Made by a program: the position numbers and the translations under genes
Shown: piece by piece, positions 10,641 to 62,722 of the stretch
How the letters are laid out: the number at the start of each line of letters is the position of its first letter
Position numbering within the stretch: position 1 is the stretch's first letter
Origin: Candidatus Iainarchaeum sp.
GTDB lineage: Archaea > Iainarchaeota > Iainarchaeia > Iainarchaeales > GCA-2688035
Length of the DNA: 64,000 nucleotides
Assembly: GCA_017610175.1 (NCBI GenBank)
Contig: JAFCCO010000006.1
Coordinates: 2,778-66,777 of the forward strand
Reading direction: 5' to 3'
The notes under the pieces: model-generated
What the model was told of the DNA's origin: nothing
Databases searched by the model: none
The model's input: the letters and a program-made list of their open reading frames with translations, nothing else

Positions 10641-10713
10641 GGCTTTCTTTTATTTTTTTTGTTTCAAATAATTTTTATCAATGTAGTGGGGCTCAGTGTA
10701 CAGGGGGAATTTT

Positions 10714-27917: not shown

Positions 27918-28023
27918 GTAAATCAAATTATTTTGGGTCGAAAACCTATAAAAAAACTGTTTTTTTGAGCGAAATTCGCACAAGGGGGATTTGTTCTTAA
28001 TTGTTTTCCACAGGCTTTATTTT

Positions 28024-35423: not shown

Positions 35424-35491
35424 TTTCTTCTTTAAAAAGAAGCAATACTTTCCTTTAAATTTCTTTTACTCTTTTATATTGTGGGGATTAA

Positions 35492-35785
35492 ATGGCAAAA
35501 CAGGCTATTGACAAAAAGCTTCTTTTGGGGGTTGCAAAAAATGCAAGGCTGAACCTCTCTGAAAAAGAAATAACCGAATTTTTGCCCCAATTGTCCGAAA
35601 TACTTGAGTCATTCGGAAAGCTGGATGAGCTTGACGTTTCAAAGGAAAAGCCATCATTCCAGCCTATTGCGACAAAAAACGTTTTTAGGGAGGACAAGGT
35701 TGAAAAATGCCTCAGCCAAAAGGACGCGCTCTCAAACACAAAACACAAAAAGGACGGCTATTTCCTTGGTCCAAAAGTGGTGTAA
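35492..35785 (+). CDS. gatC: Asp/Glu-tRNA amidotransferase subunit C
   Basis: 97 aa. VAKNARLNLSEKEITEFLPQLSEILESFGKLDELDV…FREDK. Confidence 0.85.
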   Translation: MAKQAIDKKLLLGVAKNARLNLSEKEITEFLPQLSEILESFGKLDELDVSKEKPSFQPIATKNVFREDKVEKCLSQKDALSNTKHKKDGYFLGPKVV

Positions 35786-35788
35786 CAA

Positions 35789-44919: not shown

Positions 44920-45743
44920 GCAAGCACCTTTGGAAGCTCACTCCATTTTCGCAGAATCGCATCCGGCTTAACGCGCTTTCCCTTCAGTTCTTTTTTTCTC
45001 CATTTGACACAGTCTGATGCAAAGAGAATCGCTTTCATTTCCGGAACATTTTTCTTTGCTCCGAAAACGTCGCTTAGCATGTCATTTCCCATGTAAACGG
45101 TTTCATCCGGAGTGAGTCCTTTTCGCTTAAGCTTTGCCACTGCTTTGCTGAATATTTTTGGGTTTGGTTTGCTAAAGCCCTCTTCGTAAGAACGAACAAA
45201 GAGTTCCTCTGAAAAAATCTTCCTGTAATCACTTGCCCCAAAGAGTTCTTTGAGCTGCGGCACCGTGTAAAATTGGGAATTGGAAACTATTCCAATCCAA
45301 ACTCCGCGTTTTTTTATTTTAAGCAGGGCATTCTTGCAGCCGGGATAAAGTTTCATTTGTTTGTGCAGTGAGTTGTAGTAGTTTACTATGGATGCGCCCT
45401 TTTTTTCAAGCAAAGCCATACTCCCTCTTAAGCCAAGCCTTTTAAGAGTCCTTGCCCAAATTTTTTCAATTCTTACCTCCGGCCACTTTATGCCGCGGGC
45501 CTTGCTTTTGGCGTGGCTCTTTACAATTTCTTCCTCCATCATATCAAAGAGTGCTCTTTCGGGTTTTTTTCTGGAAGCTTTTTTAAGTGGCTGCCCTAAT
45601 CCAAATTTTTTCACTGTTTTTGCCATGTAGGGCTTCATTTTTTTGAACGAGTCCTGCTTTGGCCCGTCGTTGGATGAAGCCGTACTGGTGATTATTGTGC
45701 CGTAAACGTCAAGCAGCAAGGCGCTTGTTTTTATCTTGTTCAT
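44916..45743 (-). CDS. HAD-superfamily hydrolase, subfamily IA with DxYGT motif I
   Basis: LLLDVYGTI (the second Asp is replaced by Tyr), IVSNS, SKPNPKIF, GNDMLSDV. ATGA overlaps on both sides. Confidence 0.8.
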   Translation of the reverse strand: MNKIKTSALLLDVYGTIITSTASSNDGPKQDSFKKMKPYMAKTVKKFGLGQPLKKASRKKPERALFDMMEEEIVKSHAKSKARGIKWPEVRIEKIWARTLKRLGLRGSMALLEKKGASIVNYYNSLHKQMKLYPGCKNALLKIKKRGVWIGIVSNSQFYTVPQLKELFGASDYRKIFSEELFVRSYEEGFSKPNPKIFSKAVAKLKRKGLTPDETVYMGNDMLSDVFGAKKNVPEMKAILFASDCVKWRKKELKGKRVKPDAILRKWSELPKVLA

Positions 45744-47560
45744 GTTCCGTCAACCGTAAGCGGGTGAATGTAATCAAGGTCCAAATACTTTGCAACAACT
45801 TTTTTGTTGTTTACTTTTGGCTGCTTTAATTTGTTTAGGTATGTGCGGTTTCCTATGAGAAAAAGGCTTTTCAGTCGTGCAGCTTTTGCTTTCAGGCTGT
45901 ATTGTTCAATTATTCTTTTCCTGTTCTTTGCAATTAGTTTTGACGGCTTTTTTTTGACCATTCTGTAAATTTTTCTTATTACAGGATTTATTTTCACAAA
46001 CTCTCTGATCCTCTTCTTTTCCTCAAATATTGCGTCAATTGCCTCAAGCTGCATCTCAAGGTTTAGGTCCTTGAAATCGATGCATTTGATTCCATTCACA
46101 TTGAAAAATTTAATGCTTGAAACATATCTTTTCACGCTCTTTTTTGAGATTCTTTTCAGGCCCTGTTTTTTCCTAAGCGAATTTACGTCGTGGTAGTAAA
46201 GGCTTGTTATTCTTTTTTCCGCATCCTTAATCCATTCAAGTTTAATCCACATCTTTTTGTACATGTGCCTAAAGTCCATGCCGTTTCTTTCAAAGTCGTT
46301 GCATACATAGGGTAGTTTCCTTCCCATTATCGCTTTTCCTGTTAACCATCCCTCGTGGAAACAGAAGCCGAATCCCTCAATTATACTTGTTGTTAATATT
46401 CCATCACTTACTGCAAACACATCAATAAGGCTGAATTCCTCGATTCGCCTTCCTTTTCTTTTTCTCTTTTCGCTTGGGCTCACAAAGTCGTTTCCAAGCC
46501 CTATTACCACCGGAAGCCTGTTAATCCTGCAGAATTCCTTCAAAGCATTTGAGTACTCAACGTCCTTTCCGCTGCCTGGTTCAAGGGTTATAAGGAGTTG
46601 GAATTTGTCTTCAATGCTGTTCAAAGCCATAAGCAGGAGAATTGTTTCCGCATTGTTTTTCCTTCGCATTACCTTAAGTGGACTCAGCAGAATTTTTCTC
46701 TTCTCCTCGAAAAAGTAGCGGTTTTTGTCGCTGTATTCCTTAATTCTGTCCAAGAGCTGTTTCTTGAACTGTTTTTCCTTTGTGATTGGCTTTGCTGTAA
46801 AGAAACCCGTGTCTATGCTGTTGGGCAAAAAGAAAATTCTTGAGTTTGAAATCCCAATAAGCTTCAGGTTTTCCGCGTCCCTGCTGTTGATTGTTGCGTA
46901 AAACATGTTTGGCGTGTTTGGGTACATTATTTTTGCGGCAAATTCCGGATCATACTTCCCAGTGCAGTTCTGCATTCTCTGAAGCATTTCGGGCCTTGAA
47001 TTTTCCGCAAAATCGTGCACCTGATTCAGGAACCACACCGGCTTGCGTTGTTGGTAATATTCTTCCGCCAGCATCCAGATTGCTGCACAAAGAGAGGGGT
47101 TTTTTCCGAGTGGAACGCCGTGGCAGTGGAAAATGAACGGTGAGTCCAAACTGCATTTTTCCAGATTAATGTTGCACTTCCCGGTGTCAATGTTGTGGGC
47201 GATTTTTTCCTTCAGCGCGCTTGCCTTTCGTATAAATTCTTCTTTATTTTTTCCAGGTCCGGCGTCATAGTTTAGTTCGGTTATGTCCACATTGTGCACG
47301 CGAATGTTTTCCTTGTGGTCCTGCCTTATTTTGAGGTCGCTTACACTAAAGATGTTTTCAAAATCCGAAAACACAAAAATGTCGATTTCCTTTGCCTTTA
47401 AGTGGTTCATTATTGCGTCTATTGTATTTTCTATAACAACGCGAACCCCTGCCGGCCTTAGGTGGTAGTGTTCTTCGGCAACCTTTAGTTCGGCGGGCAG
47501 TTTTCCCTCTTCCTTTATTTCAAGCAGGTCTTTTTTGATTGACTGCAACTGCCCTGCCAT
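45740..47560 (-). CDS. GT-B-fold (GT4-like) glycosyltransferase with extended N- and C-terminal regions
   Basis: …QVHDFAENSRPE…LLSPLKVMRRKNNAETI…SIIEGFGFCFHEGW. Shares these blocks with the GT at 60979..62364 (HHDFFWER / LLQPTRIMERKRIERSI / SDIEGFGNVVIEAA). Confidence 0.7.
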   Translation of the reverse strand: MAGQLQSIKKDLLEIKEEGKLPAELKVAEEHYHLRPAGVRVVIENTIDAIMNHLKAKEIDIFVFSDFENIFSVSDLKIRQDHKENIRVHNVDITELNYDAGPGKNKEEFIRKASALKEKIAHNIDTGKCNINLEKCSLDSPFIFHCHGVPLGKNPSLCAAIWMLAEEYYQQRKPVWFLNQVHDFAENSRPEMLQRMQNCTGKYDPEFAAKIMYPNTPNMFYATINSRDAENLKLIGISNSRIFFLPNSIDTGFFTAKPITKEKQFKKQLLDRIKEYSDKNRYFFEEKRKILLSPLKVMRRKNNAETILLLMALNSIEDKFQLLITLEPGSGKDVEYSNALKEFCRINRLPVVIGLGNDFVSPSEKRKRKGRRIEEFSLIDVFAVSDGILTTSIIEGFGFCFHEGWLTGKAIMGRKLPYVCNDFERNGMDFRHMYKKMWIKLEWIKDAEKRITSLYYHDVNSLRKKQGLKRISKKSVKRYVSSIKFFNVNGIKCIDFKDLNLEMQLEAIDAIFEEKKRIREFVKINPVIRKIYRMVKKKPSKLIAKNRKRIIEQYSLKAKAARLKSLFLIGNRTYLNKLKQPKVNNKKVVAKYLDLDYIHPLTVDGT

Positions 47561-47566: not shown

Positions 47567-48574
47567 TCACGTGTTCTTTTTCAGGTATGCCTTCATTGAT
47601 TCAATGAGGTTTACAGGGGTTGGGTCAATTCTGTGCAGCATTGACAGGTAAAATGCGGTGAGCGAACCAAGGTAGTTTGCATACCAAATCTGTGCAAGAA
47701 TTCCTTTTCCCTTTGCCTCAATGTCAGTAGAGTTGTACCCGATTGAGCGCACCCTTTTTTTCATGTACTGGATTCGTGCATTCATCTTCTTGCTTTCCTT
47801 TGTTCGCTTCAGGAAAATGAAGTGTGCCTTTCCCAGTCCAAGGTATGCGTTTATTTCGTTGTGCTGCAGTTCGGGCAAAAGGTTCCAGTGCAGGAAAACT
47901 TTTGCAATCTCGTTGTGTTCGGTCTGCCACCTTATTGCGCTTGCATTGAGCGCCTCTGTGGCATAGATTACCGGCAGCTTTTTGTGCAGTGTTTTTGCAA
48001 GGCTCCCTGCCTTCGCCATAATCTGCTTTTGGTTCGTTTCCATCACTTTAATGGCTTCAAAAATATCGCTTTGCTTTAGCGGGCTAAGCCCTGCCTTTGC
48101 AAGCATTGCAAGAGTTGAAAATAGCAAATAACCTGTTGCCTGCCTTGGCTGCATTCCCCCTGGCACAATAACGCATTTCTTGCATGCCTTTGCAAGCTTT
48201 CCGTTTGAGCTTATTCCAACCGAGGGAATCTTTCTTTTATTCAGTTCCCTGAATATTGTAAGTGCCTCATCAGTGTTTCCGCTGTAGCTCACCACTATGC
48301 AGAAAGTTTTATTATCAACAAATTTCGGGAGGATGTATCCGTGCTCAATGAAAACAGGGACTTTGCCTGTTTGGAAAAATGACTTTTGGATTACCTCTCC
48401 AACGTATCCACTGCCGCCCATGCCTGTAATGAAAATCTTGTCAATCCCCTTTGCTTTTGCAACCTTTACTTTCTTTCCAATCTTCCATCCTTCTCTGCAC
48501 TGTTCGGGAAAAGAAACGAGCTTGCCCAAATAATCGTTTTTGTCATATTTTGAAATTAGTTTTCCAAAGCTCAT
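47567..48574 (-). CDS. Bifunctional phosphoglucose/phosphomannose isomerase (SIS domains)
   Basis: ITGMGGSGYVGEV…VVSYSGNTDEAL… and a second SIS half. Start moved to ATG 48574 to remove the overlap with gatE. Confidence 0.8.
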   Translation of the reverse strand: MSFGKLISKYDKNDYLGKLVSFPEQCREGWKIGKKVKVAKAKGIDKIFITGMGGSGYVGEVIQKSFFQTGKVPVFIEHGYILPKFVDNKTFCIVVSYSGNTDEALTIFRELNKRKIPSVGISSNGKLAKACKKCVIVPGGMQPRQATGYLLFSTLAMLAKAGLSPLKQSDIFEAIKVMETNQKQIMAKAGSLAKTLHKKLPVIYATEALNASAIRWQTEHNEIAKVFLHWNLLPELQHNEINAYLGLGKAHFIFLKRTKESKKMNARIQYMKKRVRSIGYNSTDIEAKGKGILAQIWYANYLGSLTAFYLSMLHRIDPTPVNLIESMKAYLKKNT

Positions 48575-48641
48575 AGAACTCACTCTAATAGAATGGGCTT
48601 CAGATTTAATAAGGCTAACTTTTCGAGCTTTGTATGCAAAA

Positions 48642-50516
48642 CTACTTCTTCGCTCTCTTGGCAATTTCTTCTTTCAGTGCGGCACTTATTGCACTGCCGT
48701 CCGCCTTTCCCTTAAGTTCCCTCATTGCGTCTCCCATGAGGGCTCCGATTGCGTGCATTCCCTTGCTTTCAACAAGCGCTGAATTCTTTTCAACAATCTT
48801 GCTGATTACACCTGAAATGTCCTCTGATTTTGCCTTGCCCATTCCAAGCCCCTTCACGATTTCTTCCAAATTCTTTTTCGGATTTTTTGCAAGTGCAAGC
48901 AAAACATCTTGGTAAACGTCCTTGCTGATCTTTCCCTTATTTCCTGCGACGAGAACAGCCTCAACCATTTCGTTTGAAACAAAAACAGCGTGCTGCCTTT
49001 TCAGCTGGACTGTGGTTTCAAGCAAAAGCGTGGCTGCGGCAGTAGCATTCAGTCCCTTCTTCAAAAGCGTTTCGAAGAAGCATGCCTTGTTGCTCAGAAC
49101 CATTTTCTGCACAAGTTTTTCACTCAAACCTTGTTTTTTGTAAAGCTTGCTTCTTTCACCTACGGTAAGCGGCAATTCTTTTTTCAGCCTTTCAAGCGTT
49201 TCGGTTGAAGCGGTTACCGGCTCAAGATCTGTTTCAGGATACATTCTCGCTGCGCCCGGCAATGGCCTGCTGTACTCTGTGTTGCCGCCCTCAAGCGCGT
49301 TCCTTGTTTCCTCGGGAACTCCTTTAAACGCCTGTTCAATTCTTTCCTGCAGGACAGCAAATGCCTTTCCCGCTTTTGCTTTTTCTGCTTGCACAAGGAT
49401 GAATGCGTCTCCCTTTCCGCACCCAAGTTTTTCCATTGTGTTTGAAACTTCCTTATCGCTAATGCCATATGCGGGCAGTTCATCGCTGTGCAGAATCCCC
49501 TTAAGCCCTGCTTTTGATTTTACATAGCCTGCGAGCTCTGTCCCAAAGCGCCTCCCTTGCTGAAGTTCCTTCCCCAACAGCCCTGAAAATCCCTTAACGC
49601 ACGAGCCAAATACAATTTTGCCCTTTATGAATTTGCATTCACTTCCCTTAAACAGTTCACTGACTTCCATTGGCTCCAGTTTTATGTCCGCAGGTTTAAG
49701 GCCTCTGTTTTTCAGTTCGGCTCTTAATTCGACAAGCGCAATTTGCCTCTGCACTTCCCTTCTTGCAAATTCGTCAATCAGCTCAAGTTCCTGCACTCCC
49801 TTTATTTCAACCCTTGCTCCCTCGGCAATTGAAATGTTAACATCCTGCCTGATGGTTCCAAGGCCGCGCTTTGTGCTGCATGTTCTCCTAAAAAGCTCGC
49901 CAATCTTTTTTGCGCACTCTTTTACCTCTTCAGGTGTTTTTAGGTCAGGATCTGTTGCAAGTTCAATTAACGGGATTCCCAAGCGGTCAAGCCTGTAAAC
50001 AACTTCGCGCTCCCTTCTTTCAATTGGGCGGCAAGCGTCCTCTTCAATAGCCATGCTTTGAATTCCAACTTCCTTGTTTTTAAGCTTCAGTTTTCCTCCG
50101 ACTGAAACAAGCATTGTTCTTTGGAACCCGCTTGTGTTCGAACCGTCAATAACGGCTTTTCTCATTACAACCAGCCTGTCCATGATTGTTGCATCAGCCA
50201 TAAGCGATACTTTAAGCGTAACATCAAGTGCGTCCTTGTCGCACGGCAATGGAGGCGCTTCGTCTGCTTCAATTAAGCAGGTGGTGTCACTGTATCCTTG
50301 GTATTCGAATGTAAACCCTTTTTTGAATGCTTCAAGTGCAGCCCTGTCAAATTCGCCCATTTCGGATGCGACAGCCCTAAGCCTTCTTTTGAATACAATA
50401 TTTGGCTTGTCTTCCCTCAGAGTGGATGGGCATCTGCAGAACAGTTTTCCGGTATCAAGCTGTTGGTGAACCTCAAGTCCGGCTTTGAACCCTATTTTTG
50501 CAAAATTAGTTTCCAT
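48642..50516 (-). CDS. gatE: Glu-tRNA(Gln) amidotransferase subunit E (archaeal)
   Basis: GFKAGLEVHQQLDTGKLFCRCPS…, AspRS-like insertion domain, C-terminal YqeY-like domain, 624 aa. Confidence 0.95.
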   Translation of the reverse strand: METNFAKIGFKAGLEVHQQLDTGKLFCRCPSTLREDKPNIVFKRRLRAVASEMGEFDRAALEAFKKGFTFEYQGYSDTTCLIEADEAPPLPCDKDALDVTLKVSLMADATIMDRLVVMRKAVIDGSNTSGFQRTMLVSVGGKLKLKNKEVGIQSMAIEEDACRPIERREREVVYRLDRLGIPLIELATDPDLKTPEEVKECAKKIGELFRRTCSTKRGLGTIRQDVNISIAEGARVEIKGVQELELIDEFARREVQRQIALVELRAELKNRGLKPADIKLEPMEVSELFKGSECKFIKGKIVFGSCVKGFSGLLGKELQQGRRFGTELAGYVKSKAGLKGILHSDELPAYGISDKEVSNTMEKLGCGKGDAFILVQAEKAKAGKAFAVLQERIEQAFKGVPEETRNALEGGNTEYSRPLPGAARMYPETDLEPVTASTETLERLKKELPLTVGERSKLYKKQGLSEKLVQKMVLSNKACFFETLLKKGLNATAAATLLLETTVQLKRQHAVFVSNEMVEAVLVAGNKGKISKDVYQDVLLALAKNPKKNLEEIVKGLGMGKAKSEDISGVISKIVEKNSALVESKGMHAIGALMGDAMRELKGKADGSAISAALKEEIAKRAKK

Positions 50517-50555
50517 TCAAATCACTATAAGTTGGAGTAAAAAACGTTTTAATAG

Positions 50556-51098
50556 CTACTTTTTTGGGGAAATTTTGTGTCCCAATTCAAGGCATGCTGC
50601 CATAACCTCTTTATTTTCTGCAACTTCCCCTGCTTCCTCTGCACTGGCTTTTACACTTCCCACAACATTCATTTTGTGGTCTTTTGCAAATTCAGCCAGC
50701 GCGTTTTCGCAGAATTGCACATTTTTAAGGTCTTGCCCGCCAACAGCAATTGTTGCTGCCTGTTTTTCCTCAAGCTTGCCGGTTCCGCACAGTCCGTTTG
50801 TTCTGTCCATAAAATTCTTCATTATTCCTGAAACGTTTTTGAAGTAGTCTGGACTTCCGAATACAATTGCATCTGCACTAACAAGCTTTTCAATCAGTTT
50901 AGGCATATCGTCTTTGAGTGGGCACTCCGAATCTGTTTCAAAGCAGTCGCACACTGCCCTGCAGGGCTCTATTTTCTTGTCCGCAAGCCTTACAAGCTCT
51001 GTTTCGGCCCCGTTTTCTGCTGCGCCCTTTAGAACCTGCTTGAGCATTGAATCGGTATTTCCCTTTCGGGGAGAGCCTGAGATTGCAAGTACTTTCAT
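50556..51098 (-). CDS. NADPH-dependent FMN reductase / iron-sulfur flavoprotein-like
   Basis: MKVLAISGSPRKGNT, compact Cys cluster CRAVCDCFETDSEC, and DAIVFGSPDYF. Confidence 0.8.
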   Translation of the reverse strand: MKVLAISGSPRKGNTDSMLKQVLKGAAENGAETELVRLADKKIEPCRAVCDCFETDSECPLKDDMPKLIEKLVSADAIVFGSPDYFKNVSGIMKNFMDRTNGLCGTGKLEEKQAATIAVGGQDLKNVQFCENALAEFAKDHKMNVVGSVKASAEEAGEVAENKEVMAACLELGHKISPKK

Positions 51099-51137
51099 AA
51101 GAATAAGTGAATGCAAAAAGTGATTTAAATCAATATA

Positions 51138-51452
51138 TTACTTTTTTTTCTGTTTTGGTTTGAATGAAACAAAACCGGCTTCGTGGAGTTCGTTTGAAAT
51201 CCTTTTTTTAACTGTCCCTACACTTTCGTGGGTACGGGCAGCTTCAGCCTCTACAACCGTCTGTACGATGCCTGCATTTATGGGTTTGCGTTGCCCGCCA
51301 TGTCCTGGCGTTTTAGCTCCGCTCAGAATAACAATTTGTTGTGCGCTGGATGTAAGTTTTGAGAACGGTTTTGGTTTTTCTATATGGCTTCTTGGCAGGC
51401 CTGGTGCTTTGCCATGTCTGTTCTGTCCAATGCGTGGTCTTTTAGGGGCCAT
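51138..51452 (-). CDS. Small basic protein, possible HTH DNA-binding
   Basis: Basic N-terminus (MAPKRPRIGQNRHGK). EAEAARTHESVGTVKKRISNELHEAG resembles a sigma-r4/DUF134-type HTH. Weak call. Confidence 0.3.
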   Translation of the reverse strand: MAPKRPRIGQNRHGKAPGLPRSHIEKPKPFSKLTSSAQQIVILSGAKTPGHGGQRKPINAGIVQTVVEAEAARTHESVGTVKKRISNELHEAGFVSFKPKQKKK

Positions 51453-51481
51453 TTAAACCATATTCTTTTGGTGCGTTTCAG

Positions 51482-52024
51482 CTATTTATTCCTTTGCAAT
51501 TTGAATTTTTCGCCCACTGCCACAAAATCTTCCCCTCCAATGTGCAGCACTATTTCATTGTCATCGAGTGAGGGGTCTTTTTTTGCGGAAACGATTTCTG
51601 CAGTTACAACGAAGTGGTCTGCCTTCTTTGGCTCAAGAATTTCAACAACCTTGCATTCAAGAACAATCTTTGCTTTCTTCACATAGGGGGCATCAATCTT
51701 TTCACAGTTTTCCTTTTTCAGGCCAACAACCACAAGTTTGTCTGCGTCCTGTTCAAATGATTTTCCACAATCCACTGCCTTTTGCGCCCAGTTTCTTGAA
51801 ACAACGTTCAAAGCAAATTCTCCCTTGTTGCGGAGATTTTTTATGGTGCGTGTTTCCTTTCCCTGAACTCCAATCATAATCATTGGCGGCTTGAATGAAA
51901 CAGGGCAGCACCAGCTGTATGGCGCGGCATTGGCAATTCCCTTTTCGTCTTTTGTGGTTGCAAGCACAGTAATGCGGGGATAAATAAGCCTTGCCCCCTG
52001 TGCAAGCGGAATTTTCTCTAACAT
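51482..52024 (-). CDS. Flavin-reductase-like (flavoredoxin) FMN-binding protein
   Basis: PRITVLATTKDEKGIANAAPYSW…MIMIGVQ…TIKNLRNKGEFALNV. Confidence 0.8.
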   Translation of the reverse strand: MLEKIPLAQGARLIYPRITVLATTKDEKGIANAAPYSWCCPVSFKPPMIMIGVQGKETRTIKNLRNKGEFALNVVSRNWAQKAVDCGKSFEQDADKLVVVGLKKENCEKIDAPYVKKAKIVLECKVVEILEPKKADHFVVTAEIVSAKKDPSLDDNEIVLHIGGEDFVAVGEKFKLQRNK

Positions 52025-52078
52025 AGTAATATATCTTGTTGAAAAAGGTTTAAATTCTTCCTTTTACCCAATAATATT

Positions 52079-52945
52079 ATGAAAAGGAAACCATATGTTA
52101 AAAGGATTCCTCCCGTTAAGGCGACCGGCCGAAGAAAAGGGGCAAGGCCGAAAAGTCCGCAGCAAATCACAATTGATTTTAATACACGGGACAGGCAGAT
52201 GCGCGGAATGATGCGTGACTTCCATGTGCTTAAAGTACAGCTCGGATTAAAGAATACTTCTGATGCGCACTTGAAAAAACTGGGGTCAGTCTGGAAACAA
52301 GGCAATAATGCAAATCTTGGTTTGCTTAAAAAACTTATCAGGCTCAAACCCAAGTATGTTGCTGCATTGAAGCGCAGTGTGATTGCAAGAAGGTTAATCA
52401 AAATGCGTCTTGTTCGCGATCCCAAATTTATGCAGATTGAAAACATTGAAGCATTTACCCATCGTGCGTTCCAGTTGATTAAGGCAAGGGAAAAGGCGGG
52501 CAAAGGCTATTCAATGGCCATAGTTGATTTGGACAAGTTTAAGGCCGTCAACGATACATTTGGACATGCGGCAGGTGACGTTGTGATTGGAAAGATTGCT
52601 GACATTTTAAGCCGTTTTGCGCAGGAGCACGGGGGCGCGGCTGCCCGTGTCGGTGGTGAGGAATTTAGGTTGTTTGTCCCAATGGGTGAGAGAACACTTT
52701 CTGTTGCACTAAAGCAGCTTGCCCCTGTTTTCTCCGCAGAGCTTACAAATCCGCGAAGCTTCGGTGTTTCACCAATTAAGTCCTGGGCTGGCTGGAAGGC
52801 CCCCACCTTTAGTGCCGGGGTTGCCGGAAAGAAGGGCTCGGGGTTAATTGCCGGATTTAACAATTTAATTTCAAGCCTTGCAACCAAATCTGATGCCGCG
52901 CTCTACAAAGCAAAGGAAACAAGAAACACAGTAAAAATAGCTTGA
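52079..52945 (+). CDS. GGDEF-domain protein (putative diguanylate cyclase) with basic N-terminal region
   Basis: SMAIVDLDKFKAVNDTFGHAAGDVVIGKIADIL…AARVGGEEFRLFVP…SAGVA…KSDAALYKAKETRNTV. GGEEF is encoded at 52652-52666. Confidence 0.85.
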   Translation: MKRKPYVKRIPPVKATGRRKGARPKSPQQITIDFNTRDRQMRGMMRDFHVLKVQLGLKNTSDAHLKKLGSVWKQGNNANLGLLKKLIRLKPKYVAALKRSVIARRLIKMRLVRDPKFMQIENIEAFTHRAFQLIKAREKAGKGYSMAIVDLDKFKAVNDTFGHAAGDVVIGKIADILSRFAQEHGGAAARVGGEEFRLFVPMGERTLSVALKQLAPVFSAELTNPRSFGVSPIKSWAGWKAPTFSAGVAGKKGSGLIAGFNNLISSLATKSDAALYKAKETRNTVKIA

Positions 52946-52949
52946 TAAC

Positions 52950-54269
52950 TTATTCTTCTTTGGGCGGGAACGAATCCATTGAAATCCGCTCATTAATTTC
53001 CCCGCGCAAATTTTGGCCCATAAGCTCTGCAACCTCGGACTTTTTGTAATTTGCCAAAAGCCAAGCAAGCTTAACAAAAGCGGTTTCAGGAAGCAGGTCC
53101 TTGCAGTAAACCACTCCAATCTCTGAAAGCTTTCTGATATTTGTGTAAATGGACGGATGCACACTGCCAAACAGGCACTGTGATGTCATGCATACCACAC
53201 ACCCGCTTTTTATGAGATTTTTTATTGCCTTAATGTTGTCCTCGAATTTTTTTATTGTAACAGTTGTGTGCCCCAACCCGGTTCCTTCAATCACAAGTCC
53301 TTTGTACTTGTTTTTTCTGAAAAAATCAATTTCTATAAGTTTCATTGAAGGATGGGATTTTAGAAGCCCCACTTTTTCCTCGAACTTTGGCATTGCCTTA
53401 AATGTGCCGCGCTTTTTTGCATAATTCTTTTTCAGGAAATTTATTTTTCCCGATTTGTAATCAACAAGGGCTATTGGACTATCATTCACTGCCTTGAACG
53501 CATCCCTTCTGCTTGTGTGCATTTTTCTTGTTTTGCAGGCTGGCAGTACAGCGCATATTTCATCGTCTGTTGAATGGTGCATGCATATTGCGACCCCTGC
53601 AAAATCAGTTTTTGCAATAAACTTTGCCGCACAAATAAGGTTCATTGCAGCATCACTGCTTCCCCTGTCCGAGCTTCTCTGCGCCCCAACAAGCATTACC
53701 GGAACCGGGCAATTCTCAAGTGCAAAGGAAAGTGCTGCGGCTGTGTAACCAAGTGTATCGGTTCCGTGCCCTAAAATAATTCCCTTTGCCCCTTTTTTTA
53801 TTTCCTTTTCAATGGCATTAACAAGTTTCCCGTAATATGCAAAATTCATGTCTTCTGACATTATGTTGCTTACAAGTGTGCTTTCAAAGTTTGCTATCTC
53901 CTCCAACTCAGGGAACATTGTGAGCAAATCATCTGCACTGAATGCAGCAATGACTCCGCCTGTTTTATAATTGACTCTGCTTGCAATTGTGCCGCCTGTG
54001 TGGAGAATACTAATTGAGGGCAGGCCTTTTTTCTCCTCAACTTTTGCTGTTTTTGGTTTCCCCACCGTTTTGCCCTTACTTTTCTTCTTAACAGATTTTA
54101 TTTTTTTGATGTCAATTTCGGTGTTGTATCCACTGTTAAGCTTTAGCGCAATTAATGAGTCTGATTTGGAGGGCACAATGGTGCCAATGAGCAGGTCATT
54201 GCCCACTGAGAGCTCTATAATGTCTCCTTCTGCAATTTTGTGTTTATTTAGAAAAGCACTTTTCTTCAT
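52950..54269 (-). CDS. gatD: Glu-tRNA(Gln) amidotransferase subunit D (asparaginase-like)
   Basis: ILHTGGTIASRV…ILGHGTDTLGYTAAALSF…, 439 aa with an N-terminal extra domain. Confidence 0.95.
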   Translation of the reverse strand: MKKSAFLNKHKIAEGDIIELSVGNDLLIGTIVPSKSDSLIALKLNSGYNTEIDIKKIKSVKKKSKGKTVGKPKTAKVEEKKGLPSISILHTGGTIASRVNYKTGGVIAAFSADDLLTMFPELEEIANFESTLVSNIMSEDMNFAYYGKLVNAIEKEIKKGAKGIILGHGTDTLGYTAAALSFALENCPVPVMLVGAQRSSDRGSSDAAMNLICAAKFIAKTDFAGVAICMHHSTDDEICAVLPACKTRKMHTSRRDAFKAVNDSPIALVDYKSGKINFLKKNYAKKRGTFKAMPKFEEKVGLLKSHPSMKLIEIDFFRKNKYKGLVIEGTGLGHTTVTIKKFEDNIKAIKNLIKSGCVVCMTSQCLFGSVHPSIYTNIRKLSEIGVVYCKDLLPETAFVKLAWLLANYKKSEVAELMGQNLRGEINERISMDSFPPKEE

Positions 54270-54447: not shown

Positions 54448-55347
54448 ATGTTTTCTCCCGCAAAATCTCTTTTGAGGAAGGCTTCCAGAAAGGGTTATGC
54501 TGTGCCTGCGTTTAATACCTCCAATTTGGAGGTTACTGCTGCATTGTTTGAGGCTGCTGAGAAGGCAAAGTCTCCCTTAATGATTCAGACAACAGAGTCA
54601 AGCATTAGGTATGCCGGCTTTGAGAATTTGTTTTCAATTATTTCAACTTTTGAAAAGCGGGCGGGAATTCCTGTTTGCATTCACCTTGATCACGGCAAGG
54701 ACATGAACATAATTAAGAAGTCACTTAAGTTCGGCTACAAGAGCATAATGATTGACGCTTCAAAGTATTCATTCAAGAAAAACATTGCAATCACCAAGAG
54801 GGTTGTTGCTATGGCGAAGAGAAAGGGGTGCAGTGTTGAGGCTGAAATCGGGACTTTGGGGCGGCCTGGCAAAGGGGATTTTACGGTGCCTGATGAAGCC
54901 TGTGAGTTTGTTGAGCGCACCGGGTGCGATTCCCTTGCTGTTGCGATTGGAACAAGCCACGGGGCGCACAAGTTTAAGGGAACCCCAAAACTTGACCTCC
55001 AGCGGTTGAAGCAAATTAATGAGGTTGTAAGTATCCCGCTTGTTCTTCATGGCGCAAGTTCAGTTCCAAAAGGGATTGTTAACAACGCAAACAGGTATGG
55101 CGCGGCAATAAAACGTGCAAAGGGAGTGCCTGAGGGGCAAATAAAGAAAGCAATAAAGCTTGGAATCGCAAAGATAAACCTTGACACTGACTTGAGGTTG
55201 GCATTTACGGCATCGCTTCGCGAATTCCTTAAGAAAAACCCTTCACAATTTGATCCAAGAAAGTATCTTGCAAGTTCGGAGGACGCAGTCAAAGAGCTTG
55301 CTTTGGGGAAAATGGCTTTGTTTGGAAGTAGGGGCAAGGCAAGATGA
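54448..55347 (+). CDS. fba: Class II fructose/tagatose-bisphosphate aldolase
   Basis: YAVPAFNTSNLE…IHLDHG…MIDAS…VEAEIG…AVAIGTSHG…LVLHGASS. Confidence 0.9.
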   Translation: MFSPAKSLLRKASRKGYAVPAFNTSNLEVTAALFEAAEKAKSPLMIQTTESSIRYAGFENLFSIISTFEKRAGIPVCIHLDHGKDMNIIKKSLKFGYKSIMIDASKYSFKKNIAITKRVVAMAKRKGCSVEAEIGTLGRPGKGDFTVPDEACEFVERTGCDSLAVAIGTSHGAHKFKGTPKLDLQRLKQINEVVSIPLVLHGASSVPKGIVNNANRYGAAIKRAKGVPEGQIKKAIKLGIAKINLDTDLRLAFTASLREFLKKNPSQFDPRKYLASSEDAVKELALGKMALFGSRGKAR

Positions 55348-56042
55348 AGGTTGTCGCACTTTTCTCTGGCGGAAAGGACAGTGTCTATGCATTGTTTAAC
55401 GCAATTAATACCAATCACTCAGTTGTTGCATTGCTTACGGTGAAGTCTTCAAACAAAGAGTCTTTCATCTACCATCTGCCTGCGGTTGGCTTAACCGAAT
55501 ATTCTGCGGAGGCAATCGGGCTTCCGTTAATTGTCGCTGAAACAAACAAGAAAAAGGGATCTGAACTTGAAGTGCTTGAGCGTGCACTTGCGGATATGAA
55601 GGAGAGCGTGGGTATTGAGGGCGTTGTTTCTGGTACAGTGGCAAACCAAAACCATAAAGAAATTGTTGATTCAATTTGCAAAAAGCTTGGGCTTAATCAC
55701 ATTGCCCCGTTGTGGGGCCGCAATAAGGCTGAACTTCTTGTGGAAATGCTGGGGGTTGGTTTTAAGATTGTGATTGTAGGGGTGGCTGCAAAGGGGCTTG
55801 GAAAGGAATTTCTTGGAAAGATTGTTGATGACACCGTGCTTGACAAGCTGATTGAACTTAAAAGCAAGTTTGATGTTAACGTTGCAGGGGAAAGCGGTGA
55901 GTTTGAAACTCTTGTTGTTGACTGCCCGCTTTTCAAAAAGAAGATTGTAATAACTGAAAGTGAAATAGAGTGGGAAGGTTCCTGTGGGGAACTTATTGCA
56001 AAGAGTGCCAAACTTGTCGAAAAAAGTTCTAATTCATTATAA
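55344..56042 (+). CDS. Dph6-like N-type ATP pyrophosphatase (MJ0570 family, diphthine-ammonia ligase-like)
   Basis: MKVVALFSGGKDS…PLWGR…GESGEFETLVVDCPLF. ATGA overlap with fba. Confidence 0.8.
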   Translation: MKVVALFSGGKDSVYALFNAINTNHSVVALLTVKSSNKESFIYHLPAVGLTEYSAEAIGLPLIVAETNKKKGSELEVLERALADMKESVGIEGVVSGTVANQNHKEIVDSICKKLGLNHIAPLWGRNKAELLVEMLGVGFKIVIVGVAAKGLGKEFLGKIVDDTVLDKLIELKSKFDVNVAGESGEFETLVVDCPLFKKKIVITESEIEWEGSCGELIAKSAKLVEKSSNSL

Positions 56043-57915
56043 TCTGTGCGTAATCGTTTATTACATTGCCAACATCAACGGTGTAATCTGTAAGATCCCT
56101 ATATTGTCCGCCTCCACTTACTGCCATGGATTGCAGGTAAGGTCCCATTGGAACAAGACCCACACGCATTGAGTGCACAACAACCCCGTCTGCGTGAAGT
56201 AGGGCTGCTTCATTGTTGGGGTCAAATGTATTGCCCTCGCTTTCCCCGTCCCCGATTAGTACAATGCATTTTTTTATGGCATCCGGGCTCCATTTGAAGC
56301 TTCCCCGCACCGCATTGAGGACATCGCCCCATCGCTCATCCCATCCGTTGCTGTTTATTGTGCCGATTGTGTAAATAAAGCTTCTGTTGCGTTTTGTTGC
56401 CTCTTTGCCTAGGCGAGTCACAAGGCTGTTTGCAAGATCAAGGTAGGATGTCATGCTGCCGCTGTCGTCTATTATAAAGCGGCATTCAACGGCAGAGCCC
56501 CCATCCGGGTTTACAACTTTCTTTATGAGTGTGCTTGGCGGCATGAGGCCTGGCAGGGTTTCTGTTGGGGGCTTCTTTGGCGGTTCGGGCTTTGGAGGCG
56601 GCAGGTTAATTGTAATTTCAGCTTTGTTGTTTTCATAATTTGTTTCAACAAGCTTTTTGTCTGCGTTGACTATTACGGTTATGCTGTGTGTGCCAAAATC
56701 CAGATCAAGTGCAATTTTTTTCTCAATCTTGCGTTCTGAATCATTTATGTTGTCTGCGTCAATGTTTTCATTAAACAGTTCACGCTGGCTTCCCTGTCCA
56801 TAGTCCTTAAATATCTGGATTGAAAAATCTGACTTTGTTGCGGTTTTGCGTAAATTAACAATGTTGAAGCTAATTATTGCGTCGGCATTGTTTAGGTCTG
56901 TTACTGCAAGGTCGATTGGGCAAAGGCTTTCGTCCAGAAATACTTCCACAAGATTGGTGCCCAGGCCGCTGGTTACTGCAAGTTTGAGGTCAACATCCAC
57001 GGTTTCACTGCCAACCATTATGCTGCTTATGTTTGTGGTTACTTGCTCTTCACATTGGCTGCTTAGAAGGCAGCTTTCGCAGCTGCAATTGGTTTTGCAT
57101 TTTCCAAACTCAGTCCACGGTTGTGTGCATTGAGTTGCAGAGCAGCCTCTTGAACCCGTTGCTTCAAATTCAAGCGTTTGTTTTTCGTAGCCGCCGTTTT
57201 CACCTTTTATGAAGAGGTCAATTTCATATTTGCCTGGGTAGCCCGCATTTATTTCGATTGTTTTTTCAAGTTTTTCCCCTGCATCAAGTTTGTCAAAGCT
57301 CTCTTCCACTAAACCTTTTCCAATATAGCGCCGTTTCCACTGTGTTCCCTCCAAATATCTTTCGTAAAGTTCGGCCTTAATTTCCCCTGAAAGCATTGAT
57401 ACCCGTCCTGAATTTTTAATTTCAAGTTTCAATTTTGCAGGCCCTTCTGCCAGGTTTATTTCCTTTTGTATTTCTGCTTTCTTAACTTCAACTTGTGCGG
57501 GCTTTTTTCCTAAATATATTTTGCAAACAAAAATCGTATTTTCATATGTGCATCTTGTTGTTGTTTCAATGTCAATGCGTTCCTTTACCTCAACGTATCT
57601 TTCGCTCCATGCGACTTTGTTTGTGCAGTTTTCGTCCCTTTGGCCAATATCACAGCACAGCACCCCATCATTGCATTCGAATGCAACACTTCTGTTGTCA
57701 GAATCAAATGTTGCGCCTGTCATAACTATTTCGGGAAAGGTTGCATTTTCAGTAATTCCTGTTCCGCGGCTTGTTTCCGCCACCGCAAGATTTTTGGTTA
57801 GAAGATCAATCGGGTCAGTTGTTCTGAAGAAGAAGGGTTGAATAACCGCGAAGAATACTGCGAGAATTGCAACCGCGGCAAGGGCGTAAACAAGCAGTTT
57901 GAATGGTCCGTCCAT
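56029..57915 (-). CDS. Large Cys-rich surface protein: N-terminal TM, CARDB-like middle, C-terminal vWA domain
   Basis: TM LLVYALAAVAILAVFFAVI, pattern 'KLKLEIKNSGRVSM', Pro-rich linker PPPKPEPPKKPP, and MIDAS-type FIIDDSGSM…VLIGDGES. Confidence 0.7.
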   Translation of the reverse strand: MDGPFKLLVYALAAVAILAVFFAVIQPFFFRTTDPIDLLTKNLAVAETSRGTGITENATFPEIVMTGATFDSDNRSVAFECNDGVLCCDIGQRDENCTNKVAWSERYVEVKERIDIETTTRCTYENTIFVCKIYLGKKPAQVEVKKAEIQKEINLAEGPAKLKLEIKNSGRVSMLSGEIKAELYERYLEGTQWKRRYIGKGLVEESFDKLDAGEKLEKTIEINAGYPGKYEIDLFIKGENGGYEKQTLEFEATGSRGCSATQCTQPWTEFGKCKTNCSCESCLLSSQCEEQVTTNISSIMVGSETVDVDLKLAVTSGLGTNLVEVFLDESLCPIDLAVTDLNNADAIISFNIVNLRKTATKSDFSIQIFKDYGQGSQRELFNENIDADNINDSERKIEKKIALDLDFGTHSITVIVNADKKLVETNYENNKAEITINLPPPKPEPPKKPPTETLPGLMPPSTLIKKVVNPDGGSAVECRFIIDDSGSMTSYLDLANSLVTRLGKEATKRNRSFIYTIGTINSNGWDERWGDVLNAVRGSFKWSPDAIKKCIVLIGDGESEGNTFDPNNEAALLHADGVVVHSMRVGLVPMGPYLQSMAVSGGGQYRDLTDYTVDVGNVINDYAQIIMN

Positions 57916-62501: not shown

Positions 62502-62576
62502 TATGTATGGGACTGTGGTGTAGCCTGGTCTAGCATTGTGGCTTTGGGAGCCTCCGACTCCGGTTCAAATCCGGGC
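62502..62576 (+). tRNA. tRNA-Pro (anticodon TGG)
   Basis: GGGACTGTGGTGTAGCCTGGTCTAGCATTGTGGCTTTGGGAGCCTCCGACTCCGGTTCAAATCCGGGCAGTCCCA. Anticodon loop TTTGGGA. One U-U mismatch in the anticodon stem. No CCA. Confidence 0.85.
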
Positions 62577-62599
62577 AGTCCCACTCAATTTTACCTGTT

Positions 62600-62674
62600 T
62601 AAAGAGGGGGCTGTAGTCTAGTTTGGTCTAGGATCCCAGCTCGGGGAGCTGGTGACGGGAGTTCGAATCTCCCC
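62600..62674 (+). tRNA. tRNA, probably Pro (loop UCGGGGA; anticodon GGG with C33)
   Basis: GGGGCTGTAGTCTAGTTTGGTCTAGGATCCCAGCTCGGGGAGCTGGTGACGGGAGTTCGAATCTCCCCGGCCCCA. Perfect 5-bp anticodon stem CCAGC/GCTGG enclosing TCGGGGA. No CCA. Confidence 0.75.
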
Positions 62675-62722
62675 GGCCCCAAATCTTAATTAACAAGTTT
62701 GGTGTTATTTGGTTGGATTGAT

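What the first reader, a model, noticed from the sequence alone, without database searches (positions are those of the whole stretch)
52079..52945. Catalytically intact-looking GGDEF diguanylate cyclase embedded between archaea-specific gatE and gatD
Seen in sequence:
- The C-terminal ~150 residues (from ~145) contain every hallmark of an active GGDEF domain. These are the metal Asp in IVDLDKFKAVND, the guanine contacts N…HAAGD, R-V-GGEEF at 52652-52666, and ALYKAKETRNTV.
- There is no RxxD I-site 5 residues upstream of GGEEF.
- The N-terminal ~140 residues are strongly basic with no recognisable sensor or TM segment.
- The neighbours are flavoredoxin and Isf genes plus gatE on one side and gatD on the other. 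The gene therefore sits in unambiguously archaeal context, not at a contig edge.

Established knowledge: c-di-GMP turnover domains (GGDEF, EAL, HD-GYP) and PilZ receptors are hallmarks of Bacteria. They are reported as absent or extremely rare in Archaea.

Inference: either this is a horizontally acquired cyclase wired into an unknown archaeal effector pathway, or it is a GGDEF enzyme producing another cyclic or linear dinucleotide. No EAL, HD-GYP or PilZ gene is visible in this window.
Basis: partly seen in the sequence, partly recalled or inferred. Interest (0 to 1): 0.7.

Follow-up and report, generated by a model that had tools for sequence, protein, structure and literature searches.

The report
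Genuine diguanylate cyclase in DPANN archaea
A small archaeon of the Iainarchaeota (DPANN) group carries, as a long-resident gene of its own, an apparently fully functional enzyme for making c-di-GMP, a signalling molecule regarded as bacterial, which gives a clean test case for whether any archaea use this messenger.

Summary
ORF 52079-52945 (+, 288 aa) has a canonical GGDEF domain (Pfam 66.5 bits against a 23.8 cutoff). Every catalytic and guanine-specifying residue is present and there is no RxxD I-site. In front of it sit a very basic disordered tail and a helical stalk. It is not contamination or a chimera. Four independent assemblies share the block gatE-FMN_red...GGDEF-gatD...DNA ligase, and the GGDEF protein diverges in step with its neighbours (50-53% against 54-67%). 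GC and codon usage are native. A BRE/TATA element about 27 nt upstream of the ATG is conserved across relatives. The protein belongs to a very small archaeal family: about 17 clusters among 1.84 billion representatives, with the only two taxonomic labels both Iainarchaeota. All members keep GG[DE]E[FL]. The most likely function is a stalk-dimerised diguanylate cyclase that lacks product inhibition. Its input and effectors are unknown. About 70 window ORFs contain no EAL, HD-GYP or PilZ domain, and 127 kb contains no c-di-GMP riboswitch. Novelty is tempered. Databases already label these proteins as GGDEF, and Braun et al. 2021 mentioned more than 300 archaeal GGDEF BLAST hits in passing. c-di-GMP has still never been shown in an archaeon. 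I rate it a new member of a known kind, of moderate interest.

The parts
52049..52055 (+). TATA-like box TTTAAAT preceded by a purine-rich BRE-like 'gaaaaagg'. It is centred about 27 nt upstream of the ATG and implies a leaderless archaeal transcript.
   Evidence: Sequence read. The same rAAAGTTTAAATT element lies at the same distance in L001, L004, L003 and L005, with variants in L087 and L089. Of 52 window genes, 13 have a TATA-like hexamer at -36..-24, against 2.5% per gene expected by chance. The core TTTAAA (52049-52054) is palindromic and lies 25 nt from both divergent start codons.
52079..52945 (+). Whole gene: a 288-aa stand-alone GGDEF protein, predicted to be a diguanylate cyclase.
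   Evidence: ORF; Pfam and NCBIfam matches; full-length relatives at 39-54% identity.
52079..52156 (+). aa 1-26: disordered, extremely basic tail (11 K+R, 0 D+E). It carries the conserved motif [GD]RRxxxRPxSPQ, with R18, R19, R23 and P27 invariant or nearly so.
   Evidence: AF2 pLDDT is below 50 for residues 1-23. Charge figures. Conservation.
52157..52414 (+). aa 27-112: helical N-terminal module with helices 27-55, 62-72 and 77-112. The last helix is the stalk that leads into the GGDEF domain and is the presumed dimerisation coiled coil.
   Evidence: AF2 pLDDT is 79-91 for residues 31-100 and 70-62 for 101-120. The Foldseek top hits are coiled-coil/stalk + GGDEF cyclases: 3i5c, 7e6g, 6zxb and 6ttr. 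The partial SiaD model match starts at aa 79. There is a weak profile hit to the MvaT/H-NS oligomerisation domain, E = 0.006.
52415..52432 (+). aa 113-118: the family-specific linker RDPKFM. It replaces the canonical DxLTGLxNRR hinge between stalk and GGDEF domain.
   Evidence: D114, K116 and F117 are invariant, and R113 and P115 are at least 90% conserved. See also the alignment to 8wcn.
52433..52942 (+). aa 119-288: the GGDEF catalytic domain.
   Evidence: PF00990, aa 119-281. Target-normalised TM-scores of 0.74-0.84 (mostly 0.77-0.84) at 2.5-4.3 A rmsd (one hit, 4wxo, 6.6 A) to isolated GGDEF domain structures.
52526..52579 (+). aa 150-167: DLDKFKAVNDTFGHAAGD, which holds the metal-binding Asp D150 and the guanine contacts N158 and D167.
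   Evidence: These columns are invariant in the family. Mapped onto PleD D327, N335 and D344.
52652..52666 (+). The GGEEF active-site hairpin (aa 192-196), preceded by R190. There is no RxxD five residues upstream.
   Evidence: Invariant in 10 of 10 aligned relatives. All 17 wider family members have GG[DE]E[FL].
52913..52924 (+). aa 279-282: KETR, with the phosphate and transition-state contacts K279 and R282.
   Evidence: K279 is invariant and R282 at least 90% conserved. They map to PleD K442 and R446.
51482..52024 (-). Context: the divergently transcribed flavin reductase (flavoredoxin family), which shares the 54-bp promoter region.
   Evidence: PF01613, 87 bits. The same family also lies next to the GGDEF gene in L089.
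50556..51116 (-). Context: an FMN_red/Isf-like flavoprotein, which stays with the GGDEF gene in all four syntenic assemblies.
   Evidence: PF03358, 111 bits. Found in L001, L004 and L089. It is 43-47% identical to the L001 and L004 copies.
48642..50516 (-). Context: gatE, the left anchor of the conserved block.
   Evidence: NF003107, 759 bits. It is 58% identical to the L001 and L004 copies.
52950..54269 (-). Context: gatD, convergent with the GGDEF gene, with 4 bp between the stop codons. It is the right anchor of the conserved block.
   Evidence: NF003217, 494 bits. It is 67% identical to the L001 copy and 54% to the L004 copy.

Best explanation
This is a genuine, long-resident gene of an Iainarchaeota (DPANN) archaeon. 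It encodes a small stand-alone diguanylate cyclase. What the data show: (1) The gene has its own archaeal BRE/TATA promoter about 27 nt upstream of the ATG, implying a leaderless mRNA. The promoter region may be shared with the divergent flavin reductase gene. (2) The protein has three parts: a disordered Arg/Lys-rich tail, a helical module ending in a long stalk helix, and a canonical GGDEF domain. (3) Every residue needed to bind GTP-Mg2+ and to specify guanine is present and conserved: D150, E194, E195, N158, D167, K279 and R282. (4) The RxxD inhibitory site is absent. What I infer from characterised stalk-GGDEF cyclases (WspR, DgcB, SiaD, DgcR): two stalk helices pair as a parallel coiled coil, bringing two GTP-loaded GGDEF domains together. 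Each 3'-OH then attacks the other GTP's alpha-phosphate, giving c-di-GMP plus 2 PPi. With no I-site there is no canonical product feedback. Output would therefore be set by expression, by stalk geometry, or by a partner or polyanion that binds the conserved basic tail and helical module. The receptors and the degrading enzyme of the product are unknown.
For: Domain and residues. Fold: AF2 mean pLDDT 82.7; the Foldseek top hits are coiled-coil/stalk + GGDEF cyclases. Genuinely archaeal and vertically inherited: the block gatE-FMN_red...GGDEF-gatD...DNA ligase occurs in the window, in L001 (GCA_028713935.1), in L004 (GCA_020053055.1) and in L089 (the short 11.9-kb L089 contig lacks gatE). Identities to L001 and L004 are GatE 58%, GatD 54-67%, ligase 64% and GGDEF 50-53%. 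More distant members lie among TBP and tRNA-splicing endonuclease genes (L003), or among aIF5A, L15e, RNase P, proteasome, exosome and Pcc1 genes (L086). Native composition: GC 46.4% against 44.7 +/- 2.3%, with mid-range codon-usage distance. The archaeal promoter element is conserved across the family. The family is distinct: relatives score 157-306 bits against 63 bits or less for any bacterial GGDEF. Only about 17 clusters exist among 1.84 billion representatives. The family forms one clade in an NJ tree with 38 of 50 bootstraps. All members keep GG[DE]E[FL] and the metal and guanine residues at 24-54% identity, which indicates purifying selection on catalysis. Taxonomic labels: Ca. Iainarchaeum sp. 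and Ca. Diapherotrites archaeon.
Against: There is no biochemical evidence; activity and product are inferred from sequence alone. Dimerisation was not modelled, and the heptad pattern of helix 77-112 is only moderate (best register 0.67 hydrophobic at a/d positions). No EAL, HD-GYP or PilZ domain and no c-di-GMP riboswitch was found in the DNA available, so no complete signalling circuit is visible. c-di-GMP has never been detected in any archaeon (PMC10249747). The canonical DxLT hinge is replaced by DPKF, and the effect of that on activation is unknown.
Confidence: 0.68

Rival explanations
1. The enzyme is a GGDEF-type cyclase that makes a different product, such as 3',3'-cGAMP (Hypr-like), c-di-AMP or a linear pppNpN. 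In that case the archaeon would not use c-di-GMP at all.
For: No c-di-GMP receptor or phosphodiesterase is visible in the window or in related loci. c-di-GMP has never been detected in archaea. The hinge motif (DPKF) and the W236/W239/P242 segment are family-specific, so some functional divergence is possible.
Against: The base-specifying positions are the guanine type and are invariant: N158, and D167 in place of the Hypr Ser. The profile matches canonical diguanylate cyclases over the full domain.
Confidence: 0.12
2. The GGDEF domain is no longer used as an enzyme. The protein would act mainly through its basic N-terminal region, as a binder of nucleic acid, ribosomes or polyanions, or as a scaffold. 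The GGDEF domain would serve only as a GTP sensor or dimerisation module.
For: The N-terminal 118 aa has a pI of about 12 and a conserved Arg-rich motif. There is a weak resemblance to the oligomerisation domain of the nucleoid protein MvaT/H-NS (E = 0.006). No downstream c-di-GMP components were found.
Against: Non-catalytic GGDEF domains normally lose GGDEF, metal or base residues. Here all are retained in 17 of 17 members down to about 24% identity. Receptor-type degenerate GGDEFs work through the I-site, which is absent here.
Confidence: 0.1
3. It is an assembly or binning artefact or a very recent transfer: a bacterial GGDEF gene mis-joined into, or newly inserted in, an archaeal contig.
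For: Galperin et al. 2018 (PMC5847659) and Romling 2022 (PMC10086821) raised this general concern for GGDEF genes in archaeal MAGs. The gatE-gatD interval is a variable island that also takes up a serpin, a transposase-like HTH gene and other ORFs in relatives.
Against: The same position is found in four independent assemblies, with co-divergence of the flanking genes. GC, GC3 and codon usage are native. The archaeal TATA/BRE is conserved. No close bacterial homologue exists among 5.8 billion and 1.84 billion sequences searched.
Confidence: 0.03

Closest known systems
DgcB of Caulobacter crescentus (coiled coil + GGDEF; PDB 6ttr/6tts)
   Same: It has an N-terminal helical stalk directly followed by an active GGEEF domain. 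It is among the best sequence hits (49.7 bits) and best structural hits (target-normalised TM 0.77-0.81).
   Different: DgcB is bacterial and was crystallised with c-di-GMP bound. The window protein lacks RxxD. It has a different hinge (DPKF instead of DxLT) and an extra basic tail plus two more helices.
SiaD of Pseudomonas aeruginosa (PDB 7e6g; NCBIfam NF038266)
   Same: It is a short stand-alone cyclase of about 250 aa with a stalk + GGDEF layout. Among the named NCBIfam cyclase (equivalog) models, its match reaches furthest into the N-terminal region (aa 79-280 = model 65-246 of 252). It is the second Foldseek hit. It is a useful model for partner-activated stalk cyclases.
   Different: The score is 67 bits against a cutoff of 290, so the window protein is not a SiaD orthologue. 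There are no siaABC-like neighbours. SiaD depends on SiaC binding, and no such partner is known here.
WspR / PleD (REC-stalk-GGDEF response regulators; PDB 3bre, 3i5c, 1w25)
   Same: They share the catalytic domain, the residue set and the presumed stalk-mediated dimer mechanism. The GCN4-zipper-WspR fusion is the top Foldseek hit.
   Different: The window protein has no receiver domain and no I-site. Its input module is unrelated and is specific to this archaeal family.
Previously mentioned archaeal GGDEF proteins: Methanocella arvoryzae CAJ37382, and REC + inactivated GGDEF in Ca. Micrarchaeum (PMC5847659)
   Same: They are GGDEF domains encoded on archaeal DNA, and the Micrarchaeum case is also DPANN.
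   Different: The Micrarchaeum domains are described as inactivated, whereas this one is intact. The relationship to CAJ37382 was not tested here. The present family is short, stand-alone and supported by synteny.
Hypr GGDEF cGAMP synthases (GacA / Bd0367)
   Same: They share the GGDEF fold and GGEEF-type chemistry.
   Different: The Hypr signature is Ser at the PleD-D344 position. The window protein and all its relatives have Asp there.

Membership tests
GGDEF domain family (PF00990 / TIGR00254) | Profile-HMM match above the curated threshold over most of the domain | tested here: met
   PF00990 scores 66.5 bits against 23.8, covering profile positions 8-157 of 161. TIGR00254 scores 69 bits against 37.4.
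GGDEF domain family (PF00990 / TIGR00254) | Palm-like GGDEF fold | tested here: met
   The AF2 model has pLDDT 76-95 (mostly 85-95) per 10-residue block across the domain from residue 121 (the domain's first residues fall in a lower block, 62). Foldseek gives probability 1.00 and target-normalised TM 0.74-0.84 to isolated GGDEF domains. This rests on a predicted structure, not a solved one.
Catalytically active diguanylate cyclase | GG(D/E)EF active-site hairpin intact | tested here: met
   GGEEF is at aa 192-196 (52652-52666) and is invariant in 10 of 10 aligned relatives. All 17 wider family members have GG[DE]E[FL].
Catalytically active diguanylate cyclase | Metal-binding Asp (PleD D327) and phosphate contacts (PleD K442, R446) | tested here: met
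   D150, K279 and R282 align to these positions. D150 and K279 are invariant, and R282 is at least 90% conserved.
Catalytically active diguanylate cyclase | Guanine-specific contacts (PleD N335, D344) | tested here: met
   N158 and D167 are aligned and invariant.
Catalytically active diguanylate cyclase | Homodimerisation that juxtaposes two GGDEF domains | tested here: inconclusive
   A long stalk helix (aa 77-112) is predicted, and the structural neighbours are coiled-coil cyclases. No dimer model could be made, and the heptad signal is moderate.
Catalytically active diguanylate cyclase | Conversion of 2 GTP to c-di-GMP | not testable with these tools
   This needs an enzyme assay with LC-MS.
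Product-inhibited cyclases (I-site class) | RxxD motif five residues upstream of GGDEF | tested here: not met
   Q182/E183...G186 occupy these positions, and no family member has RxxD.
Hypr GGDEF (cGAMP synthases) | Ser in place of Asp at the PleD-344 position | tested here: not met
   D167 is Asp and is invariant.
SiaD equivalog (NF038266) | Score above the equivalog cutoff, plus siaABC neighbours | tested here: not met
   The score is 67.3 bits against a cutoff of 290. The neighbours are flavoproteins and gatD/gatE.
Complete c-di-GMP signalling module | A phosphodiesterase (EAL or HD-GYP) and a receptor (PilZ, MshEN, riboswitch) in the same genome | tested here: inconclusive
   None was found in about 70 ORFs of the 64-kb window. 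No Rfam c-di-GMP riboswitch was found in 127 kb of window plus relatives.
PilZ-type c-di-GMP binding switch | RRxxxR motif together with D/NxSxxG in a beta-barrel | tested here: not met
   The tail has a conserved RRxxxR (R18, R19, R23). There is no PF07238 match and no beta-barrel.
Anti-phage defence signalling cyclases | Match to a known defence-system model or a defence-island context | tested here: not met
   PADLOC gives no hit for the protein or its neighbours.

The most novel reading that the evidence does not exclude
Iainarchaeota may run a native archaeal c-di-GMP system. It would consist of a single vertically inherited cyclase with no I-site. Its conserved Arg-rich tail (RRxxxRPxSPQ) and helical module would receive the input or provide product feedback. 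Its effectors and degrading enzyme would be unrelated to PilZ, EAL and HD-GYP. A variant of this reading, fitting the episymbiotic lifestyle proposed for DPANN archaea, is that the dinucleotide is aimed at neighbouring or host bacteria. Co-expression with flavoproteins of the Isf and flavoredoxin families from a shared promoter would link the signal to redox or oxygen stress.
Probability: 0.3. Interest if true: 0.8.

Novelty: new member of a known kind. Interest (0 to 1): 0.5.

Why it matters
Whether any archaeon makes or uses c-di-GMP is an open question. The messenger has never been detected in archaea (PMC10249747). Earlier GGDEF hits in archaeal MAGs were suspected to be contamination or were inactivated (PMC5847659, PMC10086821). 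This locus offers a small (288 aa), soluble protein with all catalytic residues intact. Its archaeal provenance is backed by synteny, co-divergence, native composition and an archaeal promoter. That makes the question directly testable by expressing one gene. A positive result would extend c-di-GMP signalling to a second domain of life and would start a search for non-bacterial effectors. A negative result would show what an intact GGDEF domain does in a reduced DPANN genome.

Tried and rejected
Only bacterial loci came back (52-56% over short 57-66-residue segments, at most 44% over longer matches), so it says nothing about this clade.
2. The N-terminal-only profile search returned nothing, not even the family itself. 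I treat it as a failed search, probably because low-complexity basic words crowded the candidate list. It is not evidence that the module is unique.
3. A look-up of the window's own protein found it not on record, so the source sample could not be identified.
4. The first phylogeny attempt timed out. The rerun is a crude NJ tree with only 30 bacterial outgroup domains and a saturation warning, so I use it as supportive evidence only.
5. The profile search with tier-2 sequences scored only 8000 candidates and added little beyond making P0126 and P0165 available for context look-ups.
6. Rfam found only tRNAs (one search failed on the size limit).
7. PADLOC found nothing, so I rejected a defence-system reading.
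8. I rejected functional coupling to gatD/gatE. The interval between them is a variable island, and more distant family members sit elsewhere.
9. I did not adopt functional coupling to the flavoproteins. The association is limited to the four closely syntenic genomes, and tblastn found no FMN_red gene in L003 or L005. It may simply reflect shared ancestry.
10. The reverse-strand ORFs 52018-52503 and 52507-52887 are shadow ORFs of the GGDEF gene.
Full report
**The observation.**
The ORF at 52079..52945 (+) is real and encodes 288 aa. It matches Pfam PF00990 (GGDEF) at 66.5 bits, E = 3e-18, against a gathering score of 23.8. The match covers profile positions 8-157 of 161 and aa 119-281. It also matches TIGR00254 at 69 bits and 47 solved GGDEF structures. 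No other domain is detected.

I aligned the protein to the PleD GGDEF domain. The mapping is:
- D150 = D327 (metal ligand)
- N158 = N335 and D167 = D344 (guanine contacts)
- R190 = R366
- G192GEEF196 = residues 368-372
- K279 = K442 and R282 = R446 (phosphate contacts)

The RxxD I-site positions are occupied by Q182/E183 and G186, so the inhibitory site is absent. The N-terminal 118 residues hold 33 K+R against 5 D+E, with a pI of about 12.

**The surroundings.**
- GatE, 48642-50516 (NF003107, 759 bits)
- an FMN_red/Isf-like flavoprotein, 50556-51116
- a flavin reductase of the flavoredoxin family, 51482-52024
- GatD, 52950-54269 (NF003217, 494 bits)
- a class II fructose-bisphosphate aldolase
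- a diphthamide synthase

Elsewhere the window carries fibrillarin, Nop56/58 and NMD3, so the DNA is unambiguously archaeal. I scanned about 70 ORFs of the window against Pfam, including small ORFs in intergenic gaps. None has an EAL, HD-GYP or PilZ domain. Rfam finds only tRNAs, and no c-di-GMP riboswitch, in 127 kb of window plus related loci. PADLOC finds no defence-system context.

**Is it really an archaeal gene?**
Yes. Four lines of evidence agree.
- Relatives. Among 5.8 billion clustered proteins, nine score 157-306 bits: eight full-length proteins at 39-54% identity and one 161-aa fragment. The next hits are generic bacterial GGDEFs at 63 bits or less. One relative is labelled Ca. Iainarchaeum sp. 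A cluster-mate of another (MAG22356.1, on a 90.8-kb contig) is labelled Ca. Diapherotrites archaeon, which UniRef lists as Ca. Iainarchaeum sp.. The NCBI lineage is Archaea; Nanobdellati; Iainarchaeota.
- Synteny. Three further independent assemblies place the gene in the same block as the window. They are L001 (GCA_028713935.1), L004 (GCA_020053055.1) and L089 (a Logan assembly). The block is gatE, FMN_red, GGDEF, [flavin reductase], gatD, [FBA], a large ORF and DNA ligase; the 11.9-kb L089 contig starts at FMN_red and so does not include gatE.
- Co-divergence. Against L001 and L004, GatE is 58% identical, GatD 54-67%, DNA ligase 64%, FMN_red 43-47% and the GGDEF protein 50-53%. The gene has therefore diverged in step with its housekeeping neighbours.
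- Native signals. Gene GC is 46.4% against 44.7 +/- 2.3% for 52 window genes. GC3 is 45.3% against 46.4 +/- 4.5%. Its codon-usage distance is mid-range for genes of its size. A BRE/TATA-like element (rAAAGTTTAAATT) is centred about 27 nt upstream of the ATG. It is conserved at the same distance in the window, L001, L004, L003 and L005, with variants in L087 and L089. The same signature precedes 13 of 52 window genes, where about 2.5% per gene would be expected by chance.

More distant family members sit in other, clearly archaeal contexts. L003 has TBP and tRNA-splicing endonuclease. L086 has aIF5A, L15e, L37ae, RNase P proteins, proteasome, exosome, Pcc1 and prefoldin. Chimerism, contamination and recent transfer are therefore effectively excluded.

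**The family.**
I ran an exhaustive HMMER profile search of 1.84 billion cluster representatives. It finds only a handful of full-length clusters: P0003, P0008, P0009, P0121 and P0123, plus fragments. A second tier of short proteins (P0124-P0127, and more weakly P0156 and P0165) has the same layout. After these come ordinary, mostly multi-domain GGDEF proteins.

All 17 members keep GG[DE]E[FL]. The metal Asp and the guanine Asn and Asp are invariant in both family alignments, although pairwise identity falls to about 24%. This points to purifying selection on catalysis.

Family-specific features are:
- the tail motif [GD]RRxxxRPxSPQ
- the hinge RDPKF in place of the canonical DxLTGLxNRR
- a conserved W-x-GW-x-x-P-[TS]-FSAG segment

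In a crude NJ tree of GGDEF domains, the 17 members form one clade apart from the 30 closest bacterial domains, with 38 of 50 bootstraps. That tree carries a saturation warning and a limited outgroup, so it is supportive only. No donor lineage can be named.

**Structure and mechanism.**
The AF2 model, built on the 10-sequence alignment, has mean pLDDT 82.7. It shows a disordered tail (aa 1-23), helices at 27-55, 62-72 and 77-112, and then a GGDEF fold. The best Foldseek hits in the PDB are cyclases with a coiled-coil or stalk in front of the GGDEF domain:
- the GCN4-zipper-WspR fusion (3i5c)
- SiaD (7e6g)
- DgcR (6zxb)
- DgcB coiled coil + GGDEF (6ttr)

Among the named NCBIfam cyclase models, the SiaD match reaches furthest into the N-terminal region, covering aa 79-280, but it scores far below that model's cutoff (67 against 290 bits). 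A profile of the N-terminal module alone gives only a weak hit to the coiled-coil oligomerisation domain of MvaT/H-NS (E = 0.006).

From established knowledge of GGDEF enzymes, I infer the following. The stalk helices pair to form a homodimer. Each GGDEF domain binds one GTP-Mg2+, and the two condense to c-di-GMP. With no RxxD there is no canonical product inhibition. The conserved basic tail and helical module are the only candidates for input, for example through a partner protein, a polyanion or nucleic acid, or phosphorylation at the RPxSP site. None of these steps has been shown biochemically.

**Comparison with what is known.**
Mechanistically the protein works like the stalk-GGDEF cyclases DgcB, SiaD and WspR.

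By membership:
- It is a GGDEF-family protein with every catalytic feature met.
- It is not a SiaD orthologue.
- It is not a Hypr cGAMP synthase, because it has Asp rather than Ser at the PleD-344 position.
- It is not an I-site-regulated enzyme.
- It is not a PilZ-type binder.

In the literature:
- Galperin et al. 2018 stated that the only archaeal GGDEF then known was from Methanocella arvoryzae. They mentioned inactivated GGDEFs in Ca. Micrarchaeum and raised a contamination caveat (PMC5847659).
- Romling 2022 said GGDEF presence in archaeal contigs needs confirmation (PMC10086821).
- The 2023 review says c-di-GMP has not been described in archaea (PMC10249747).
- Braun et al. 2021 noted in passing more than 300 archaeal GGDEF BLAST hits, many from DPANN and Asgard (PMC8646023).
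- Full-text searches for archaeal diguanylate cyclases returned nothing more specific.

Databases already auto-annotate these proteins as 'GGDEF domain-containing'.

**Verdict.**

What this analysis adds:
- evidence that the gene is native and vertically inherited in Iainarchaeota
- the finding that it defines a tiny lineage-specific family with a distinctive N-terminal module and no I-site
- the finding that it is under selection for catalysis

It is a new member of a known kind. Interest is moderate (0.5). The enzyme class is ordinary, and the existence of such hits was already known. Even so, the locus makes the question 'do any archaea make c-di-GMP?' directly testable with one small protein.

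Noticed in passing
window 52025-52078 (TTTAAA at 52049-52054): The 54-bp divergent intergenic region holds a single palindromic TATA core. It lies exactly 25 nt from both start codons (flavin reductase at 52024 on the - strand, GGDEF at 52079 on the + strand) and has purine-rich BRE-like runs on both sides. This could be a compact bidirectional leaderless promoter that co-regulates a flavoprotein and the cyclase.
   Followed up: partly
window 52130-52162 (aa 18-28 of the GGDEF protein): A short motif, [GD]RRxxxRPxSPQ, is conserved inside the otherwise disordered basic tail. It matches the RRxxxR half of the PilZ c-di-GMP switch and also an RxxS-P kinase-type site. It could be a partner, feedback or phosphorylation site, but that is purely speculative.
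   Followed up: partly
window 33639-39389: A second, bacterial-type amidotransferase set lies in the same window as gatD/gatE. It comprises an AspRS with a GAD insertion (33639-35423), a GatC-like 97-aa ORF (35492-35785, not scanned), GatA (35789-37198), an inositol monophosphatase-family gene inserted between gatA and gatB (37195-37974), and GatB (37971-39389).
   Followed up: partly
window 50516-52950; L001 5404-9905; L004 5599-8822; L089 568-2788: The interval between gatE and gatD behaves as a small variable island. Only FMN_red and the GGDEF gene are constant. The relatives additionally carry a serpin (L004), a transposase-like HTH gene and a 552-aa ORF (L001), or a 191-aa ORF (L089).
   Followed up: partly
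window 51138-51452 (-): A 104-aa, very basic ORF with no family match lies between the FMN_red and flavin reductase genes. tblastn finds no counterpart in L001 or L004. It may be lineage-specific or spurious.
   Followed up: no
window 45740-47560 (-), 56029-57915 (-), 23135-24706 (-): Three large ORFs (606, 628 and 523 aa) have no Pfam or PADLOC match. The 628-aa ORF, which is Cys-rich with an N-terminal hydrophobic segment, is partly conserved (34% identity over about 250 aa) at the same syntenic position in L001 and L004.
   Followed up: no
window 8423-11415, 26265-31319, 47567-48664, 54448-55347: The metabolic content is unusually rich for a DPANN genome. It includes the anaerobic ribonucleotide reductase NrdD plus a radical-SAM activase, a complete DapL-type diaminopimelate/lysine pathway (dapA, dapB, aminotransferase, dapF, lysA), a bacterial-type PGI and a class II FBP aldolase.
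   Followed up: no
window 62509-62584 and 62607-62681: Two tandem tRNA-Pro genes (anticodons TGG and GGG) lie 22 nt apart.
   Followed up: no
L086 9022-9864 (P0126) and P0124-P0127, P0156, P0165: There is a second tier of short GGDEF proteins (263-305 aa) with the same layout of basic tail, helices, D[PA]KF hinge and W-GWK-P-FSAG segment. At least one is archaeal: L086 carries exosome, RNase P, L15e and proteasome genes. Their taxonomy is unlabelled, so the family may extend beyond the labelled Iainarchaeota.
   Followed up: partly
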